Shown piece by piece: positions 53,978-61,168 of a stretch of DNA of 64,000 nucleotides. The position numbers and the translations under genes were made by a program. The DNA is from an uncultured Chitinophagales bacterium (GTDB lineage: Bacteria > Bacteroidota > Ignavibacteria > UBA10030 > F1-140-MAGs086). The DNA lies in NCBI GenBank assembly GCA_964358705.1, contig CAYHPL010000004.1, positions 62,750-126,749 of the forward strand. The letters are read 5' to 3'. Position 1 is the first letter of the stretch. Each line of letters starts with the position of its first letter. A model generated the notes under the pieces. The model saw nothing but the letters and a program-made list of their open reading frames with translations. It was not told the DNA's origin and ran no database searches.

Positions 53978-54373
53978 TTAGTGAGCAATAATAGAAATAG
54001 TATCCGAAATTATATTTCTGTATTTCTCTCGCAGCAACATAGAAATTTTATAAACTCCCGGTCGGTCTAATAGTGCTGTATCAACATAAGTTCTTTGCGC
54101 ATTAATTAATGTATCTGGAAGAGTATAAATAAGTACCTTTCTTCCGCCTTTACCAAACACGAATTTAGCTGGAACAAACATTTTCATAGAATCAATTTTT
54201 CCAATTAGATTTCCTGTCAATGTAACTTTCAATGGAGATACACCGTTGTAAATATTCGCTTTCAGGGATAATTCTTTTTCTTGGACTTTCGTTGGCTCGA
54301 ACAACTCACTGCAAGAAAATGAAATAAAAACACAAACAAGAAAAAAAAGGAAGTACTTAAATGAATTTACCAT
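53978..54373 (-). CDS. Small putative lipoprotein, unknown function
   Basis: MVNSFKYFLFFLVCVFISFSC has a lipobox-like ISFSC. It is the last gene of the kor transcription unit and is followed by a terminator. ATG 54373 is preferred over TTG 54427. Confidence 0.5.
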   Translation of the reverse strand: MVNSFKYFLFFLVCVFISFSCSELFEPTKVQEKELSLKANIYNGVSPLKVTLTGNLIGKIDSMKMFVPAKFVFGKGGRKVLIYTLPDTLINAQRTYVDTALLDRPGVYKISMLLREKYRNIISDTISIIAH

Positions 54374-54440
54374 TTTTATTAAATGCTCTGATACTTCTTC
54401 TCTTGAAAAAGATTCTTCACGATTCAAATTCTTTACAAAA

Positions 54441-55487
54441 TTATTTTATTTCCCACGTCTGTCCGCTTCCAAGAAGTTCGTTGAGACTTCCTTTTTTCTT
54501 AGCGGCGGCTTTTTGTACCTGTGTTTCCATATCTGCATCATACGTCGGGCGTTCAATTGCGCGGAAAATTCCAATCGGTCGCGGCATTCCTTCCATTGAT
54601 GAAAAACTCGCAAGTATAAATGCAAGCACGGAATCTTTCTCATTATGGACGAGTAAATCATCAACGGAAATTCCATCACCGAGCGTTACCACTTTCGGCG
54701 TAAATCCGTCAAGTTTAATTCCTCTCGTTTTTTCTTTTCCGAACACCATCGGTTTTCCGTGTTCAAGAATGAGCACAGTATCATCCCGTGTGTCTTTTTC
54801 TGTAAAAGCAAAAAAAGCGCCATCGTTAAAGACGTTGCAGTTCTGATATATTTCCACAAATGCAGTGCCTTTGTGTTCGCCCGCACGTTTTAAAATGTAC
54901 TGCATGTGTTTCGGGTCGCGGTCAAGTGTGCGTGCGACAAAACTTCCTTCTGCACCCAGCGCAAGCAATGCGGGAATAAACGGATGGTCAATATTTCCGT
55001 ACGGTGTGGATTTGGTTACTTGTCCGTATAATGATGTCGGAGAATACTGTCCTTTCGTCAATCCGTAAATTTGATTATTGAAGAGCACAATTTTTATATC
55101 CACATTGCGGCGCAACGTGTGAATAAAATGATTTCCTCCGATACTCATTCCATCGCCATCACCTGTTGCAACCCACACGGAAAGGTCGGGACGGGAAATT
55201 TTTACTCCTGTTGCAATTGCAGTTGCGCGACCGTGAATACCGTGAAAGCCATACGTATCCATATAATATGGAAAGCGGCTGGAACATCCGATGCCCGATA
55301 CCCATACGATATTATGTTTTGCAACACCGAATTCCGGCATTGTCCGTTGTACCTGTGCGAGAATTGAGTAATCACCGCATCCGGGACACCATCGCACATC
55401 CTGATTGGATTGAAAATCTCGCGCAGAGTATTTTGGTTGTGTAAAATTTTGTTTTGCTTTTTCTAATGTTTCTGTTACAAGCGACAT
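54441..55487 (-). CDS. korB: 2-oxoglutarate/2-oxoacid:ferredoxin oxidoreductase beta subunit
   Basis: WCPGCGDYSIL and the TPP-binding motif GDGDGMSIGGNHFIH; 348 aa, the typical KorB size. Confidence 0.9.
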   Translation of the reverse strand: MSLVTETLEKAKQNFTQPKYSARDFQSNQDVRWCPGCGDYSILAQVQRTMPEFGVAKHNIVWVSGIGCSSRFPYYMDTYGFHGIHGRATAIATGVKISRPDLSVWVATGDGDGMSIGGNHFIHTLRRNVDIKIVLFNNQIYGLTKGQYSPTSLYGQVTKSTPYGNIDHPFIPALLALGAEGSFVARTLDRDPKHMQYILKRAGEHKGTAFVEIYQNCNVFNDGAFFAFTEKDTRDDTVLILEHGKPMVFGKEKTRGIKLDGFTPKVVTLGDGISVDDLLVHNEKDSVLAFILASFSSMEGMPRPIGIFRAIERPTYDADMETQVQKAAAKKKGSLNELLGSGQTWEIK

Positions 55488-55506
55488 AGTTTTTTAGTTT
55501 TTGTTT

Positions 55507-55746
55507 TTAATTTTTTTTATTAAATAAAATGACAAATTCGTCAAGTGTTAATTCTAAATCTTCCCGGATTATCTTTCTCAGCAATCCTTTCGGAATTTCT
55601 CTCTTTGCATGAACCGGAATTGTTGTTACTCTACCATCTTCTGATTTCATTCGGATATGTGAGCCTTTTGTTCGCACGTTTTGAAATCCAATGGATTCTA
55701 ACAAGCGCACCAATTGCTTTCCGCTAAGCGAAGGCAACTTTGGCAT
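55507..55746 (-). CDS. hicA: HicA-family toxin (YcfA-like mRNA interferase)
   Basis: LSGKQLVRLLESIGFQNVRTKGSHIRM....TIPVH..EIPKGLLRKIIRE is the classic HicA dsRBD-like pattern with the GSH motif. The start overlaps the hicB-like ORF by 23 nt. Confidence 0.8.
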   Translation of the reverse strand: MPKLPSLSGKQLVRLLESIGFQNVRTKGSHIRMKSEDGRVTTIPVHAKREIPKGLLRKIIREDLELTLDEFVILFNKKN

Positions 55747-55969
55747 GCGTGTTTATTTCAATTTCACGAAAGCCAACAAACGTATTTAACTTTTCTACGT
55801 TTGTTTCTTCTATGCAAAGTTCTATTACTTCACGAATATTATTCAGTGCTTCCTCAATAGTTACACCATATGAATGGCATCCCTTAAAGAGCGGACAACC
55901 AACAATATAATAACCGTCTTCGTCCATTTCGATGATAATGGGAAAGTGAAAAGATTTTTGTTTATCCAT
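55724..55969 (-). CDS. hicB: HicB/UPF0150-family antitoxin, N-terminal (toxin-binding) domain only
   Basis: FHFPIIIEMDEDGYYIVGCPLFKGCHSYGVTIEEALNNIREVIELCIEE matches the HicB N-domain pattern. The 81 aa carry no RHH/HTH extension. Confidence 0.75.
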   Translation of the reverse strand: MDKQKSFHFPIIIEMDEDGYYIVGCPLFKGCHSYGVTIEEALNNIREVIELCIEETNVEKLNTFVGFREIEINTHAKVAFA

Positions 55970-55991
55970 TTTGAAAAATATATATAGTAAT

Positions 55992-57824
55992 TTATTTCAT
56001 CCCCAGCACTTCATCAATTTTCTTTTCCAGTTCCGATGCCTTGAATGGCTGTCCCTGAATTTTATTGTATGAAATTGTTGGAATGAGATAGCGGAAGCGC
56101 AATACTTTTGAAAGTTGTCCGAGATTTAATTCCGGCACGAGAATATGTTTAAAGCGATAAAGAATTTCGCCGACATTTTTCTGCATCGGATTGAGATAGC
56201 GCAAATGCAAATGCGATACTGATTTTCCTTCTCTGCGTTTATTCATCACTGCTGTTTTAATTGCTCCGTACGTGCCGCCCCAACCAACTACAAGTACATC
56301 ACCGCTTTCATCACCTTCAATTTCTGCAAGCGGAATGTCATCGGCAATGCGGTCAATTTTTTCCTGACGCAATTTGCACATATACTCGTGGTTTCCTGCT
56401 TCGTAATTTACATTACCGGTGATGTGTTGCTTTTCCAAACCGCCGATACGGTGCTCAAGTCCGGGAGTTCCGGGAATTGCCCACGGACGCGATAAGGTTT
56501 TCTCATCACGCAAGTATGGGAAAAATCCTTCTTTTTCTGTTCGGAATGTTGGATGTAATTCCGGTAAATCTTCTTCCGCCGGATATTTCCATGGTTCTGC
56601 GCCATTTGCAATGTATCCATCGGAAAGAAAAATTACCGGCGACATTGTATTCAACGCAATACGAGCCGCTTCAAATACTGTTTCAAAACAATCTGAAGGT
56701 GTTTTAGATGCAATAACGCATACTGGCGCTTCACCATTTCTTCCGTACATCGCCTGCATTAAATCCGCCTGCTCTGTTTTTGTCGGAAGTCCTGTGCTTG
56801 GTCCGCCGCGCTGAATATTTACAATGACGAGCGGAAGTTCCGTCATCAATGCAAGCCCGATAGCTTCACCTTTTAATGCAAGACCTGGACCGCTTGTCGT
56901 TGTTACGGCAAGCGCACCAGAATATGATGCGCCAATCGTACTTGCAATTGCCGCAATTTCATCTTCTGCCTGAAATGTTTTGACGCGGAAATTTTTGTGC
57001 CGTGAAAGTTCGTGCAAAATATCGCTTGCAGGCGTTATCGGATACGTGCCGAGAAATAAATCCAATCCTGATTTTATCGAAGCGGCAATCAATCCGAATG
57101 CAACCGCTTCATTTCCGGTAATGCTGCGATACGTGCCGGGCGTAAGTTTTGCAGGCGCAACATCGTAACGGACGGCGAAAATTTCTGTCGTCTCTCCGTA
57201 ATTATAACCGGCTTTCAACACCCGTGAGTTCGCTTCAACAAATTCCGGCGTTTTTTTGAACTTGTCCTGAATCCATTCCAGAGATGGCTCCATCGAACGG
57301 TTAAACATCCAGTACATCATTCCAAGCGCAAAAAAGTTTTTGCAACGGTCAACGTGTTTGGAAGACATATTCATATCTGCCAACACATTTCCTGTCAGTT
57401 TTGTAATATCAACGACGTGCAATTTATATTTTTGCAGAGAGCCATCGTCCAGCGGACTTTTTTCATAGCCGGCAAGTTTCAGATTTTTTACATCAAAGCC
57501 ATCGCGATTGGCGATGATAATGCCGCCATCTTTCAGACTGTTGAGATTTACTTTGAGCGATGCAGGGTTCATTGCAACAAGCACATCGCACGTATCGCCG
57601 GGCGTGTGAATATCAATTGCACCAAAGTGCAGTTGAAATCCGCTCACACCGAAAAGTGTTCCGGCTGGAGCGCGAATTTCTGCAGGGTAATCGGGAAATG
57701 TACTCAAATCATTGCCAAACAAAGCGGTTGTTTTGGTAAATTCCATTCCGGTTAATTGCATACCGTCGCCGGAATCGCCGGCAAAACGTATTGTTACTTC
57801 ATCAAGGTTTTGGAGTGTTTTCAT
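55992..57824 (-). CDS. korA: 2-oxoglutarate/2-oxoacid:ferredoxin oxidoreductase alpha subunit (fused gamma-alpha type)
   Basis: 610 aa. The N-terminal POR-gamma-like domain reads RFAGDSGDGMQLTG. The pyrimidine-binding/transketolase-like core reads GNEAVAFGLIAAS..YPITPASDI..EDEIAA. Confidence 0.9.
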   Translation of the reverse strand: MKTLQNLDEVTIRFAGDSGDGMQLTGMEFTKTTALFGNDLSTFPDYPAEIRAPAGTLFGVSGFQLHFGAIDIHTPGDTCDVLVAMNPASLKVNLNSLKDGGIIIANRDGFDVKNLKLAGYEKSPLDDGSLQKYKLHVVDITKLTGNVLADMNMSSKHVDRCKNFFALGMMYWMFNRSMEPSLEWIQDKFKKTPEFVEANSRVLKAGYNYGETTEIFAVRYDVAPAKLTPGTYRSITGNEAVAFGLIAASIKSGLDLFLGTYPITPASDILHELSRHKNFRVKTFQAEDEIAAIASTIGASYSGALAVTTTSGPGLALKGEAIGLALMTELPLVIVNIQRGGPSTGLPTKTEQADLMQAMYGRNGEAPVCVIASKTPSDCFETVFEAARIALNTMSPVIFLSDGYIANGAEPWKYPAEEDLPELHPTFRTEKEGFFPYLRDEKTLSRPWAIPGTPGLEHRIGGLEKQHITGNVNYEAGNHEYMCKLRQEKIDRIADDIPLAEIEGDESGDVLVVGWGGTYGAIKTAVMNKRREGKSVSHLHLRYLNPMQKNVGEILYRFKHILVPELNLGQLSKVLRFRYLIPTISYNKIQGQPFKASELEKKIDEVLGMK

Positions 57825-57850
57825 TGTTGCTAAATTATATTTGTAAATTT

Positions 57851-60800
57851 TTATTTCAAGTGTACAAGTTTTTTCGTTTCTACAAATTCACCTGCTTGCA
57901 AACGATAAATGTAAATACCAGATGGGAATTTTGTAGCATCCCATTCTGTATCGTGCATACCCGCTAAGAGTTCATCATTTACTAATGTTGCAATTTCTTC
58001 CCCTATCAAATTATATATTTTGAGAATTACATAACTTGGTTTTTGCAAATGAAATTGAATTGTTGTTGTAGGATTAAAAGGATTGGGTGTGTTCTGCAAA
58101 AGTTTTGTTTTTCGTAATGATGAATCTTGTTTGTTATTTATAACTGGTTTTAAGATTTTTTGTGTTGCAACCGCTTCATATCGTCCACGTGTTACAAAGA
58201 TAAATGACCGTTCCATTCCTTCCTGTAAAGGTGGTGCGTTAAATTCAAGGTCAATCCATTCACCGGGATTCAATTCTGCATAATCTTGATCCCAGTTTTG
58301 CAAATGATTTTTTATATCGCCGATATCTGAGTGAACTGCTTGAAGCAACTGTGTTGAATGAACGGTAAACGGCAATTCTAATTTGTTACTTAATTCTGTA
58401 TAGTCAATTTCAGAGTCTTCTTTCCATTGAATATTAATTTGCAAGGTGCTTGTATCTGCGGCTGGAACCATCATCCATGTAAAAGATGGATTTCTTCGTA
58501 AATGAAATGAAGAAAATGTTTTTTGTCCTTCTTCTCCATTAATAGTAACCTCCCCAGCAGTATTTTTCTTTGTTGAATTTGGTTTTAACCGAGCAACCAG
58601 AAGCAAACCGTTTTCGTAAGATTGTCCGCCGTTTTGAGTGAATAATAATTGGAGGTTGTCGTTCTTTGCTGCTTCAACTTTTACTCCATCTAATGTTGAT
58701 ATTTCTTTTATCACTTCTTCAGAATCAAGTTCGGCGCTTGCGACATAAATGGGCTTTGCAAACTGTATAATTGTTCCATTATCATCAATTGTAATTGAAA
58801 CATCGGAAGAGTGGTCTATTGCGAGCAATTGAAAACGATCAAACCACGAATGTTCTTGTTCAAACTCTGCAACGGCTAACTTATATGTTTCTCCTTCAAC
58901 AACTGGAGAAGAATAGAGCTGATAATAATCGGTAACATCTTGTCCGTGGTTTTCAGGAAATTCACTTTGAGGTAAAATGTTGTTGTCTTCTATATATGTT
59001 CCACCGTTCCAGACGTACACAAACGGGCATCCGTTTCCACCTGCAAAAGTAGGGTGATAAACAATTGTTTGTGATATTCCGGCCTGATTAGTAACATAGC
59101 ATTCCAATTCCCACGTAGGTGCTTTAAATGAATGATTACTGCTTAATTTATTATTGCCATAATGCAGAATAGCCTTTTTTCCGTTAAATGTAACCGTAGA
59201 ACCAGATGGTTCATTTCTTGATATCCAATGGTATTGCAGATTTCCATTGCCCTGCGAAAGGCTACAAATTACTTCACCATTTTGGTAAGGGAAAAAAGGA
59301 AATGGATTTTGACTAATATTGGAAATCAATGGCGGAAAAATGGGAGGATGTTGATAAAAAAATGGGTACTCTCGAATTACCCAATCTTGTTGATAAACAC
59401 CATAATCTCCATTAAAATATGGCTTTACTTTAATGACTAGAGAATAATTGTCCGAAGTCCATTGAGATGCATCTATAAAATAATTATGTAAATATGCGCC
59501 AGTAGTATCGTATGATTGTATAAGAGTTTCCACAATACTACCAGTGCTATTCTTTTTTATATATGCATGAATTTTACTCAAATTCGTAGGTAAAAATTTC
59601 GCATTAACAGTTGAACCTTGTACATTTACGTTCATTTTTATTATATCTGCCCCAGGAAGAAATGTCCTCATTCCCGTAGTATTGCCCCAACTATCAGCCG
59701 TATATAAATAAAATGCTCTACCATAATGTGCTATCCCATTATTATCTTCATACATCAGCCATGGAGATTTACTTATTCTTTGTGGAGATGAAAATCCTAC
59801 GGTCGAAACTATATATTCACCCGTCCAGGAAAATTTATGGACCATTTCTAATCCTTCATCAGTAATCCACCACTCGTCTACATCATCTTGACCAATGTCC
59901 GTTAGATAAGAATTCGATAAAAACTCTGTACTACGAATAGCTATCGCGGTTTGAGTTGAATTATTTATTGAATTGGGATCTATAAGTACAAAAGAATTTC
60001 TTGCACCATCAATGACACCGATATAATTACTCCATGAAAATGAGTAACCTTCTGAAGCAAGAATTTTCCTTGGACGTAAAAGTCTGTATGTTTGTCCATC
60101 AAGGGTATAATATTTTATAGTTCTTAATACATTACAATTCATATCGGTTTCAACGATTTGTCCTGCTCTATCATCAGCAATCCAGAGGCGGTTGTTGTCT
60201 GCATTATAAAACCCGCCATCTAATTTTAAAGATATATCACAGAGATGTTCTATGCCGTCAATTACTACATCAGATACATAACCAAGAACACCCTGATAAA
60301 TGTAATAAACTAGTCGTACTATTTTATTACCATCAATAACATATACTCTTGAATTATCTTGTTGTAAATAAGACAATGGTTCTACTGCAATTGCTTGAGG
60401 ATTAAAAAATTCATGATTCCCCAAATGGTCTCCATATGATTTTACCCAGTTCCCGCTTTTATTTAAGTACACAATTCGATTCCAATCTGGATCAAGAAAA
60501 AATGAAACGGCATTAGCCTCATTAGTGTTAATGTAAAGCCCGTCTGCATCAATTTTACTGTTATTTGCAAAAAGTTTGAGTTGAAGATGTTGTTGAGTTA
60601 CTGTCGCATTTAATACCTGAATATTCGTGTTCGGATGATTGATAGATAACAATGCTTTGTCGCTCGTAATTAAATCATTTAATATCAGAACGGAAGAAAC
60701 ATTATTTGATTTGTTATTCTGGTATTCAATGTTCATCAGATACTCCGGTATTTCAATAAATATCCATCCCCTCTTTGACCTCTCGAATTTGATAAGTGAA

Positions 60801-61168
60801 CTTGTCAAGTTAATATTTTTCCCATCAGTAATATCACATATAGTGTAAGCCGAATTCCCTTCTATCTTTATTTGATGAGGTTTTATTGTAAAATTTTCAA
60901 AAGAAATTTTCTCCTTTTTAAAAAAAATCCTTTTCGCTGATTTATTGACTTTTGAAGCAAAGTATTTATTGGGGAGGTATTGCTGAATACTTGATATATC
61001 TCCTCTTCGCAAAGAAAACATAAATTGCTGCAAGAGCAATTTTATTTGTACTTCTTCAGATGGTCTTTCTCCGGGGAGCAACAAGGGCTGAATTCCTTGA
61101 GAAAAACTTGGAAAGAAAATCTCTAATTCAAGAATTCCTATTGCTAATATGAAGATGATATATTTCAT
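57851..61168 (-). CDS. Large secreted protein of unknown function with divergent T9SS CTD (1105 aa)
   Basis: Signal peptide present. NHL-like stretches (RLWIADDRAGQIVETDMNCNVLRTI). The CTD LLQNTPNPFNPTTTIQF...GIYIYRLQ...KKLVHLK differs from the other 11 CTDs. The gene is AT-rich. Confidence 0.7.
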   Translation of the reverse strand: MKYIIFILAIGILELEIFFPSFSQGIQPLLLPGERPSEEVQIKLLLQQFMFSLRRGDISSIQQYLPNKYFASKVNKSAKRIFFKKEKISFENFTIKPHQIKIEGNSAYTICDITDGKNINLTSSLIKFERSKRGWIFIEIPEYLMNIEYQNNKSNNVSSVLILNDLITSDKALLSINHPNTNIQVLNATVTQQHLQLKLFANNSKIDADGLYINTNEANAVSFFLDPDWNRIVYLNKSGNWVKSYGDHLGNHEFFNPQAIAVEPLSYLQQDNSRVYVIDGNKIVRLVYYIYQGVLGYVSDVVIDGIEHLCDISLKLDGGFYNADNNRLWIADDRAGQIVETDMNCNVLRTIKYYTLDGQTYRLLRPRKILASEGYSFSWSNYIGVIDGARNSFVLIDPNSINNSTQTAIAIRSTEFLSNSYLTDIGQDDVDEWWITDEGLEMVHKFSWTGEYIVSTVGFSSPQRISKSPWLMYEDNNGIAHYGRAFYLYTADSWGNTTGMRTFLPGADIIKMNVNVQGSTVNAKFLPTNLSKIHAYIKKNSTGSIVETLIQSYDTTGAYLHNYFIDASQWTSDNYSLVIKVKPYFNGDYGVYQQDWVIREYPFFYQHPPIFPPLISNISQNPFPFFPYQNGEVICSLSQGNGNLQYHWISRNEPSGSTVTFNGKKAILHYGNNKLSSNHSFKAPTWELECYVTNQAGISQTIVYHPTFAGGNGCPFVYVWNGGTYIEDNNILPQSEFPENHGQDVTDYYQLYSSPVVEGETYKLAVAEFEQEHSWFDRFQLLAIDHSSDVSITIDDNGTIIQFAKPIYVASAELDSEEVIKEISTLDGVKVEAAKNDNLQLLFTQNGGQSYENGLLLVARLKPNSTKKNTAGEVTINGEEGQKTFSSFHLRRNPSFTWMMVPAADTSTLQINIQWKEDSEIDYTELSNKLELPFTVHSTQLLQAVHSDIGDIKNHLQNWDQDYAELNPGEWIDLEFNAPPLQEGMERSFIFVTRGRYEAVATQKILKPVINNKQDSSLRKTKLLQNTPNPFNPTTTIQFHLQKPSYVILKIYNLIGEEIATLVNDELLAGMHDTEWDATKFPSGIYIYRLQAGEFVETKKLVHLK

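What the first reader, a model, noticed from the sequence alone, without database searches (positions are those of the whole stretch)
55507..55969. hicB/hicA-like toxin-antitoxin pair inserted between korA and korB
The 504-nt gap between korA (stop 55992) and korB (start 55487) is filled by two same-strand ORFs. An 81-aa HicB-N-domain protein starts 22 nt after korA. A 79-aa HicA-like toxin overlaps it by 23 nt and ends 19 nt before korB. No terminator or obvious promoter is visible, so the pair is probably co-transcribed with this central ferredoxin-dependent operon. Single hand counts give 37 G+C per 100 nt at 55801..55900 versus 51 per 100 at 56401..56500 (korA), consistent with foreign origin. 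The HicB-like protein lacks the usual RHH/HTH DNA-binding extension. It probably cannot autoregulate and depends on the kor promoter. That would couple the toxin/antitoxin balance to kor expression, or make the operon addictive.
Basis: partly seen in the sequence, partly recalled or inferred. Interest (0 to 1): 0.6.

Follow-up and report, generated by a model that had tools for sequence, protein, structure and literature searches.

The report
Toxin-antitoxin pair inside kor operon
A small, mobile "poison and antidote" gene pair (hicB-hicA) has landed exactly between the two subunit genes of a central ferredoxin-dependent 2-oxoacid oxidoreductase in this one bacterial lineage; the pair is an ordinary known type and only its position is unusual.

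Summary
Two same-strand ORFs fill the 504-nt korA-korB gap: an 81-aa HicB (PF15919, 38 bits against a cut-off of 27) and a 79-aa HicA (PF07927, 70 bits). They overlap by 23 nt.

All 29 relatives examined, from all nine families of the order, have korA and korB 11-35 nt apart with no insert. The insertion is therefore lineage-specific.

The nearest relatives of the pair are only 68-81% identical. They are scattered over methanogens, Asgard archaea, Atribacterota, Dehalococcoidia and Bacteroidota, whereas the best match within the order is 49%. This points to horizontal acquisition.

The pair is a typical "Class 2" hicBA module (Gerdes 2024): hicB first, small HicB without a DNA-binding domain, overlapping genes. 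The missing DNA-binding domain is therefore the class norm, not a local oddity.

The G+C argument is weak, because korA is unusually GC-rich and the insert is only mildly AT-rich.

No terminator, promoter match, repeat footprint or RNA family lies in the insert, so co-transcription with kor is the best inference, but it is untested.

Related cassettes sit between nuoF|nuoG, FdhB-like|FdhA-like and recX|alaS elsewhere. A control shows no enrichment for such embedding.

This scan has already found hicBA inside atp, nuo and pheST operons on other DNA.

The parts
55992..57824 (-). korA: alpha subunit of a two-subunit 2-oxoacid:acceptor (ferredoxin) oxidoreductase, 610 aa
   Evidence: TIGR03710 OAFO_sf scores 650 bits against a cut-off of 483, with POR, POR_N and PFOR_II domains. 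It is the only strong match in the genome. Its C-terminus ...EVLGMK* matches that of relative G001.
55970..55991 (-). 22-nt AT-rich spacer between the korA stop and the hicB ATG
   Evidence: Sequence read. It holds no promoter-like or TAnnTTTG motif.
55724..55969 (-). hicB: 81-aa antitoxin consisting of the HicB N-domain only, with no DNA-binding domain
   Evidence: PF15919 scores 38.3 bits against a cut-off of 27. It matches the PDB entries 6g1c/6g1n (HicB) and 2yzt. The AF2 model has pLDDT 88.5 with a beta-beta-beta-alpha core, and the top Foldseek hits are HicB structures. All invariant subfamily residues are kept.
55724..55746 (-). 23-nt overlap between the hicB 3' end and the hicA 5' end, a candidate translational-coupling region
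   Evidence: Coordinates. The hicA start MPKLP is conserved in homologues. HicB carries a 5-aa C-terminal extension relative to homologues. The same 23-nt overlap occurs in 14 of 157 related loci, while the commonest overlap is 8 nt.
55507..55746 (-). hicA: 79-aa HicA-family mRNA-interferase toxin
   Evidence: PF07927 scores 69.8 bits against a cut-off of 27. It matches the PDB entries 1whz and 4c26/6g26 (HicA). G28-S29-H30 and all other invariant residues are kept.
55488..55506 (-). 19-nt A-rich spacer between the hicA stop and the korB ATG
   Evidence: It resembles the A-rich leaders in front of korB in relatives.
54441..55487 (-). korB: beta (TPP-binding) subunit, 348 aa
   Evidence: PF02775 scores 109 bits. 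TIGR02177 PorB_KorB scores 258.6 bits, just under its cut-off of 261.9. Its N-terminus is collinear with the relatives' korB.

Best explanation
A compact Class 2 type II toxin-antitoxin cassette (hicB then hicA) was acquired horizontally. It inserted cleanly into the short intercistronic spacer of the korAB (2-oxoacid:ferredoxin oxidoreductase) operon in the lineage of this genome, leaving both kor genes intact.

Shown: family membership of both proteins; intact conserved residues, including the HicA Gly-Ser-His motif; absence of the insert in all relatives examined; no terminator, recognisable promoter, repeat footprint or RNA family within the insert.

Inferred mechanism: the pair has no room for its own regulatory region (22 nt upstream, 19 nt downstream) and no DNA-binding domain. 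It is therefore transcribed as part of the korA-hicB-hicA-korB polycistronic mRNA. HicB is translated first, and hicA is translationally coupled to it through the 23-nt overlap, which keeps antitoxin at or above toxin levels. HicB neutralises HicA by direct binding, as in solved HicAB complexes. If synthesis stops and HicB is degraded, free HicA would cleave mRNAs and arrest growth.

The location is most likely a tolerated accident of a selfish module rather than part of Kor function.
For: Pfam: HicB_lk_antitox scores 38.3 bits and HicA_toxin 69.8 bits, both against cut-offs of 27.

Solved-structure relatives are HicA (1whz, 4c26, 6g26) and HicB (6g1c, 6g1n, 2yzt). The HicB AF2 model has pLDDT 88.5, and its best Foldseek hits are HicB structures.

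Alignments show that all invariant residues are retained and that the hicA start MPKLP is conserved.

All 29 korA loci from relatives, spanning 9 families, have korA-korB gaps of 11-35 nt and no hic genes.

The best HicA match in 276 other genomes of the order is 49% identical, and none of those hits lies beside kor. Own-genome paralogues are at most 45% identical. Relatives at 68-81% identity occur in many archaeal and bacterial phyla.

The order hicB->hicA holds in 157 of 160 related loci, the other three being cut by a contig end or lacking a nearby hicB match, and overlaps are usual. The Class 2 definition and its unresolved regulation are described in Gerdes 2024, PMC10865869.

There is no terminator, no Rfam hit, no flanking repeats and no Bacteroidota-type -7 motif before hicB or korB.
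Against: No expression data exist, so co-transcription is inferred only from spacing. The promoter rules of this lineage are unknown, so a promoter inside the 3' end of korA cannot be excluded.

No Class 2 hicBA module has ever been tested experimentally, so toxicity and neutralisation are extrapolated from Classes 3 and 4.

The window copy sits on a long terminal branch (0.30 against a median of 0.075) with no supported sister. This could reflect relaxed constraint.

9 of 154 related hicA copies carry premature stops, including two operon-embedded ones. Decay of such cassettes is therefore common.

No second genome of the same genus was available to date the event or measure selection.
Confidence: 0.8

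Rival explanations
1. The cassette is autonomous. It is transcribed from its own promoter lying in the last codons of korA or in the 22-nt AT-rich spacer, independently of kor expression. korB is served by read-through or by a promoter inside hicA.
For: Most related cassettes stand behind spacers of more than 60 nt and so must have promoters of their own. The spacer TATATATATTTTTCAAA is AT-rich and TATA-like. One TAnnTTTG match lies inside hicB at 55784-55777, 30 nt upstream of the hicA ATG.
Against: The sigma-70 scan finds nothing upstream of hicB beyond chance: 7 sites against 8.4 expected in the region, with the only nearby site inside hicB. The single TAnnTTTG hit is what chance predicts for 3.6 kb and lacks a -33 TTTG. 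No upstream sequence is conserved among related cassettes, so none could have travelled with the genes.
Confidence: 0.2
2. The pair is a neutralised remnant. The toxin is no longer active, or is barely expressed, and the two ORFs persist only because removing them cleanly from inside an important operon is unlikely.
For: The terminal branch of the window copy is long. HicB departs from two nearly invariant positions (S24G, L53I) and has lost the usual stop, gaining 5 residues. 9 of 154 relatives have nonsense-mutated hicA, including the nuoF|nuoG copy L124 and the MCM-adjacent copy L092.
Against: Both ORFs are full length, with every invariant residue present, including HicA G28-S29-H30. The 23-nt overlap variant recurs in 14 other intact loci.
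Confidence: 0.2
3. The position is functional. The cassette has been co-opted to couple growth arrest, or mRNA processing of the kor transcript, to the expression state of a central redox operon. One form of this would be a transcription-shut-off sensor for abortive infection.
For: The same subfamily lies between subunit genes of other redox complexes: nuoF|nuoG in L061 and L124, NuoF-like|molybdopterin subunit in L097, and GATase_2|GXGXG in L113. Earlier notes of this scan report hicBA inside atp, nuo and Mo-hydroxylase operons. HicB of this subfamily has conserved Cys and His residues.
Against: A control shows hicBA blocks are less often tightly embedded than ordinary ORFs of the same loci: 6% against 19% with tight neighbours on both sides, and 26% against 41% upstream. 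Tight contexts are heterogeneous, including recX|alaS, urocanase, AnmK, glycosidases and miaA. The insert is confined to one genome among 30 kor loci.
Confidence: 0.08
4. The insert is an assembly artefact, that is, a chimeric join in a metagenome-assembled genome.
For: The genome consists of 57 contigs and appears to be a MAG.
Against: The insert sits precisely in the spacer, with both kor genes complete and collinear with relatives to the last codon. The window lies in the interior of its contig (C4:62750-126749). A chimera would not respect both gene boundaries.
Confidence: 0.02

Closest known systems
Class 2 hicBA modules (Gerdes 2024, mBio 15:e03293-23, PMC10865869)
   Same: The gene order is hicB then hicA. 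HicB is 60-90 aa without a DNA-binding domain, and HicA is 60-85 aa. The genes overlap. The class is widespread in bacteria and archaea.
   Different: This copy lies inside an operon between two enzyme-subunit genes, with only 22 and 19 nt of flanking spacer. Its overlap is 23 nt, against the commonest value of 8 nt.
Burkholderia pseudomallei HicAB (PDB 6g26, 6g1n, 6g1c, 4c26) and E. coli K-12 HicAB (PDB 6hpb)
   Same: The HicA has the same dsRBD-type family and Gly-Ser-His motif. The HicB N-domain has the same partial RNase H fold.
   Different: Those systems have hicA first. Their HicB carries a C-terminal RHH or HTH domain that autorepresses its own promoter. Here the order is reversed and the DNA-binding domain is absent.
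Thermus thermophilus TTHA1756 (2yzt) and 1whz HicA-like protein
   Same: These are the best single-domain structural and sequence relatives: a short stand-alone HicB-like protein and a roughly 70-aa HicA-like protein.
   Different: They are structural-genomics proteins without functional data. Their identity to the window proteins is only about 25-35%.
hicBA cassettes at intercistronic junctions of other housekeeping operons
   Same: These are promoterless-looking insertions between subunit genes: nuoF|nuoG (L061, L124), NuoF-like|FdhA-like (L097), GATase_2|GXGXG (L113) and recX|alaS (L080). Unchecked earlier notes of this scan report atpG|atpD, atpA|atpG, Mo-hydroxylase and pheS|pheT.
   Different: The host operons and lineages differ. 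None of these cases involves korA|korB. Some of the copies have a nonsense-mutated hicA, whereas this one is intact.

Membership tests
HicA toxin (PF07927) | Match to the family HMM above the curated cut-off | tested here: met
   69.8 bits against a cut-off of 27, covering profile positions 1-55 of 58.
HicA toxin (PF07927) | Conserved Gly-x-His catalytic motif (His24 in B. pseudomallei HicA) | tested here: met
   G28-S29-H30 is invariant in 15 subfamily members. It aligns to the GS(H->A) site of the 4c26/6g26 chains. That this His is catalytic is taken from the published HicA literature, not tested here.
HicA toxin (PF07927) | mRNA-interferase activity and growth arrest on expression | not testable with these tools
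   This needs expression in a laboratory host. No Class 2 member has been tested.
HicB antitoxin (PF15919) | Match to the family HMM above the curated cut-off | tested here: met
   38.3 bits against a cut-off of 27, covering profile positions 1-48 of 123, which is the N-domain only.
HicB antitoxin (PF15919) | Partial RNase H fold (beta-beta-beta-alpha-beta) | tested here: met
   The AF2 model has pLDDT 88.5 with E12-15, E21-24, E32-35 and H38-55. The top Foldseek hits are 2yzt, 6g1c, 6g1n and 4p78, with probability 0.97-1.00 and E-values from 3e-3. The fourth strand is not formed in the monomer model.
HicB antitoxin (PF15919) | Encoded next to hicA on the same strand | tested here: met
   Same strand with a 23-nt overlap.
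Class 2 hicBA (Gerdes 2024) | hicB upstream of hicA; HicB 60-90 aa with no identifiable DNA-binding domain; HicA 60-85 aa; genes closely linked or overlapping | tested here: met
   The proteins are 81 aa and 79 aa. There is no DBD family in Pfam or NCBIfam. Residues 56-81 of the model form no helix-turn-helix or ribbon-helix-helix. The overlap is 23 nt. The definition was read.
Classical autoregulated type II TA operon | Antitoxin carries a DNA-binding domain that represses its own promoter | tested here: not met
   There is no DBD and no room for an operator-promoter in the 22-nt spacer.
2-oxoglutarate:ferredoxin oxidoreductase KorAB | Two-subunit OAFO-type alpha and beta subunits | tested here: met
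   The alpha subunit scores 650 bits on TIGR03710 against a cut-off of 483. The beta subunit scores 109 bits on PF02775 and 258.6 bits on TIGR02177, against a cut-off of 261.9.
2-oxoglutarate:ferredoxin oxidoreductase KorAB | Specificity for 2-oxoglutarate | tested here: inconclusive
   The equivalog models for 2-oxoglutarate synthase (NF007206, NF007207) score far below their cut-offs. 'kor' is therefore a conventional name here; the substrate is not established.

The most novel reading that the evidence does not exclude
Class 2 hicBA cassettes, which lack any DNA-binding domain, may habitually solve their regulation problem by hitch-hiking on strongly expressed housekeeping operons, for example kor here and nuo, fdh/hyd-like and recX-alaS in relatives. 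Unchecked notes of this scan add atp and pheST. The toxin would then report on the transcription state of central metabolism, for example as a host-shut-off sensor in abortive infection. The conserved Cys/His set of this HicB subfamily (H8, C25, C31, H32, C52) could add redox or metal sensing.
Probability: 0.08. Interest if true: 0.6.

Novelty: new member of a known kind. Interest (0 to 1): 0.3.

Why it matters
The insertion places an untested class of RNase toxin inside the only two-subunit 2-oxoacid:ferredoxin oxidoreductase operon of an anaerobic Ignavibacteriales-type bacterium.

It is a clean natural example of a promoterless, DBD-less TA module that must live on host read-through. It could therefore serve as a test case for the open question raised by Gerdes 2024: how Class 2 hicBA modules are regulated.

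For genome annotation, it is a reminder that conserved subunit gene pairs can be split by selfish cassettes without being broken. It does not point to new biochemistry.

Tried and rejected
I could not look for other assemblies of the same species or for exact-copy contexts.

(2) I looked for an insertion footprint. No target-site duplication, terminal inverted repeat or duplicated stop/start junction flanks the insert. The joined spacers resemble the TTTTCAAAACAA spacer of relative G003. That sequence is low-complexity A/T, so I draw no conclusion from it.

(3) I found no sequence conserved upstream or downstream among related cassettes.

(4) Rfam at a permissive threshold returned nothing.

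(5) A Bacteroidota-type promoter motif search gave only chance-level hits.

(6) G+C as evidence of foreign origin is rejected as weak.

(7) I tested whether the subfamily prefers operon-embedded sites. With a crude ORF caller and an internal control it does not; it is less embedded than neighbouring genes.

(8) A tree of concatenated HicB+HicA from 154 loci gave no supported sister for the window copy, so no donor can be named.

(9) An order-wide measurement of the korA-korB gap was started. Only 150 of 270 matches were listed and korB coordinates were not collected, so the junction statistic rests on the 29 loci.

(10) Model coordinates are not exposed, so the spatial clustering of the conserved Cys and His residues in HicB could not be checked.

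Full report
**Observation**

The minus strand of the window carries, in order:
- korA, 55992-57824, 610 aa
- an 81-aa ORF, 55724-55969
- a 79-aa ORF, 55507-55746
- korB, 54441-55487, 348 aa

The gap is 504 nt. There are 22 nt from the korA stop to the first ATG, the two small ORFs overlap by 23 nt, and 19 nt separate the second stop from the korB ATG. Its hand G+C counts are also exact: 37/100 and 51/100.

**What the two ORFs are**

Against Pfam, the first ORF matches HicB_lk_antitox (PF15919) at 38.3 bits and the second matches HicA_toxin (PF07927) at 69.8 bits. The curated cut-off is 27 for both. NCBIfam has no model that fits either.

By sequence, the HicA is nearest to the Thermus HicA-like protein 1whz and to Burkholderia pseudomallei HicA (4c26, 6g26). 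The HicB is nearest to B. pseudomallei HicB (6g1c, 6g1n) and to the 67-aa Thermus protein 2yzt.

An AlphaFold2 model of HicB, built on 116 homologues, has mean pLDDT 88.5. It shows three strands and a long helix. Its best Foldseek matches in the PDB are HicB structures: 2yzt, 6g1c, 6g1n, 4p78 and 6hpb. Residues 56-81 form no helix-turn-helix or ribbon-helix-helix, so there is no DNA-binding domain.

**Integrity**

In alignments with the closest homologues, every invariant residue of both proteins is present in the window copies. This includes the Gly28-Ser29-His30 motif of HicA, which corresponds to the catalytic-histidine site mutated in the 4c26/6g26 chains.

The hicA start MPKLP is conserved in all homologues, so the ATG at 55746 and the 23-nt overlap are real. 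HicB is 5 residues longer at its C-terminus than its relatives. In 157 related loci the commonest overlap is 8 nt (101 loci), but the 23-nt form recurs in 14.

**The class**

The subfamily has HicB of about 73 aa and HicA of about 80 aa, always with hicB first. This is Class 2 of Gerdes 2024 (PMC10865869). That class is small HicB without a DNA-binding domain, hicB upstream, and genes overlapping. The paper calls it the most common bicistronic arrangement. [quoted passage not shown]

Makarova et al. 2009 (PMC2701414) likewise note that the HicB domain itself is probably not DNA-binding and that only some HicB proteins are fused to RHH or HTH domains.

The own genome holds 11 HicA_toxin matches and 6 HicB matches. 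In the four other loci where both are found, hicB is again upstream.

**Lineage-specific insertion**

KorA was found in 40 of 41 related genomes. In all 29 fetched loci from other genomes, representing nine families of the order, korB follows korA after 11-35 nt. No hic gene lies between them.

The two same-family genomes with 83-84% identical KorA end korA with ...EVLGMK* or ...EVLAMK* and start korB with MSL..., as the window does. The cassette therefore entered the spacer without touching either gene. KorA is the only strong match in the window's genome, so the insert lies in its sole operon of this type.

'kor' is a conventional name here. The alpha subunit passes the OAFO subfamily model, but the 2-oxoglutarate equivalogs are far below their cut-offs.

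**Origin**

Among 277 genomes of the order, the best other HicA is 49% identical, and none of the 13 genomes with a hit has it beside kor. The own-genome paralogues are at most 45% identical.

In the large protein collection and in genome and metagenome contigs, relatives at 60-72% (HicA) and 68-81% (HicB) identity occur widely. They are found in Dehalococcoidia, Atribacterota, Methanosarcinales/ANME, Methanomicrobiales, Methanothrix, Asgard archaea, Omnitrophota, Cytophagales, Bacteroidales and others. This patchy, cross-domain spread is what a horizontally mobile cassette gives.

A tree of concatenated HicB+HicA places the window copy on a long branch (0.30 against a median of 0.075) with no supported sister, so no donor can be named.

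G+C adds little. The genome is 38.7% G+C. The insert, at 33.3%, is at the 8th percentile of 500-nt windows, and korA, at 44.5%, is at the 96th percentile of long ORFs. Most of the contrast comes from korA.

**How it is probably expressed**

Several checks found no regulatory or structural feature in the insert:
- No terminator-like hairpin lies between korA and korB, and sigma-70-like matches are not above shuffled expectation.
- No Bacteroidota-type TAnnTTTG motif precedes hicB or korB.
- Rfam finds nothing.
- No direct or inverted repeats bracket the insert.
- No flank is conserved among related cassettes.

With 22 and 19 nt of spacer and no DBD, the simplest reading is read-through transcription from the kor promoter. 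HicB would be translated first, and hicA translation would be coupled to it through the overlap. This is inference; nothing here measures RNA.

**Is operon embedding a habit of this subfamily?**

Several relatives do sit between co-directional genes with tiny gaps:
- nuoF|nuoG in two Cytophagales MAGs (L061, L124)
- a NuoF/HydB-like subunit and a molybdopterin subunit, with overlaps of -1 and -4 nt (L097)
- GATase_2|GXGXG in Thermodesulfatator (L113)
- recX|alaS (L080)
- directly after methylmalonyl-CoA mutase (L092, L133)

Earlier notes of this scan report hicBA inside atp, nuo, Mo-hydroxylase and pheST operons on other DNA. I did not check those notes.

A control argues against a preference. 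With the same crude ORF caller, hicBA blocks have a tight same-strand neighbour on both sides (60 nt or less) in 7 of 112 cases, against 47 of 247 for other ORFs of the same loci. For upstream neighbours alone the figures are 26% against 41%. The tight contexts are also heterogeneous.

Embedded copies are thus a tolerated minority, and some are decaying. 9 of 154 hicA copies have premature stops, including L124 and L092.

**Verdict**

It needs correction on three points: the G+C argument, the significance of the missing DBD, and the idea that the position is adaptive.

It is a new member of a known class in an uncommon place, of modest interest. Its main value is as a natural test case for how DBD-less hicBA modules are regulated.

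Noticed in passing
window 55724-55969 (HicB) and alignment A3: This short-HicB subfamily keeps H8, C31 and C52 invariant and C25 and H32 nearly invariant across 116 sequences. The Cys positions are not conserved in B. pseudomallei HicB or in 2yzt. They may form a metal or redox site.
   Followed up: partly
L124:3001-3186, L092:3001-3051, L134/L135, L142/L152, L073: Premature stop codons, several of them TAA in place of GAA or CAA, interrupt hicA in 9 of 154 related cassettes. These include the nuoF|nuoG-embedded copy and the copy after methylmalonyl-CoA mutase. The toxin gene therefore decays while hicB stays open.
   Followed up: partly
L061:1424-4324, L124:1371-4327, L097:99-4597, L113:1581-3994, L080:2086-5949: The same hicBA subfamily is inserted between nuoF and nuoG (two Cytophagales MAGs), between a NuoF-like subunit and a molybdopterin subunit (with start/stop overlaps), between the GATase_2 and GXGXG subunits, and between recX and alaS.
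   Followed up: partly
window 57825-61168: korA starts only 26 nt after the stop of a 1105-aa T9SS-type cargo gene. In several relatives a conserved gene of about 250 aa, ending ...PFLNE(I/L)G*, occupies that position instead. The kor locus of this genome has therefore been remodelled on its upstream side as well.
   Followed up: partly
whole genome G000 (C2, C8, C14, C21, C26, C29, C30): The genome carries 11 HicA_toxin matches above the Pfam cut-off and 6 HicB matches. Three of the HicA matches lie on contig C29. The genome is rich in hicBA modules, and none is closely related to the kor copy (45% identity or less).
   Followed up: partly
window 53978-54427: A 149-aa ORF follows korB after 13 nt on the same strand. 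It is followed in turn by a DHH-type phosphoesterase-like gene and an aminopeptidase-like gene, forming a long co-directional array. It was not examined.
   Followed up: no
L066:261-1979: In a Methanothrix chromosome, a related hicBA lies about 800 nt from a korA/korB-like pair on the opposite strand. I take this to be coincidence.
   Followed up: no
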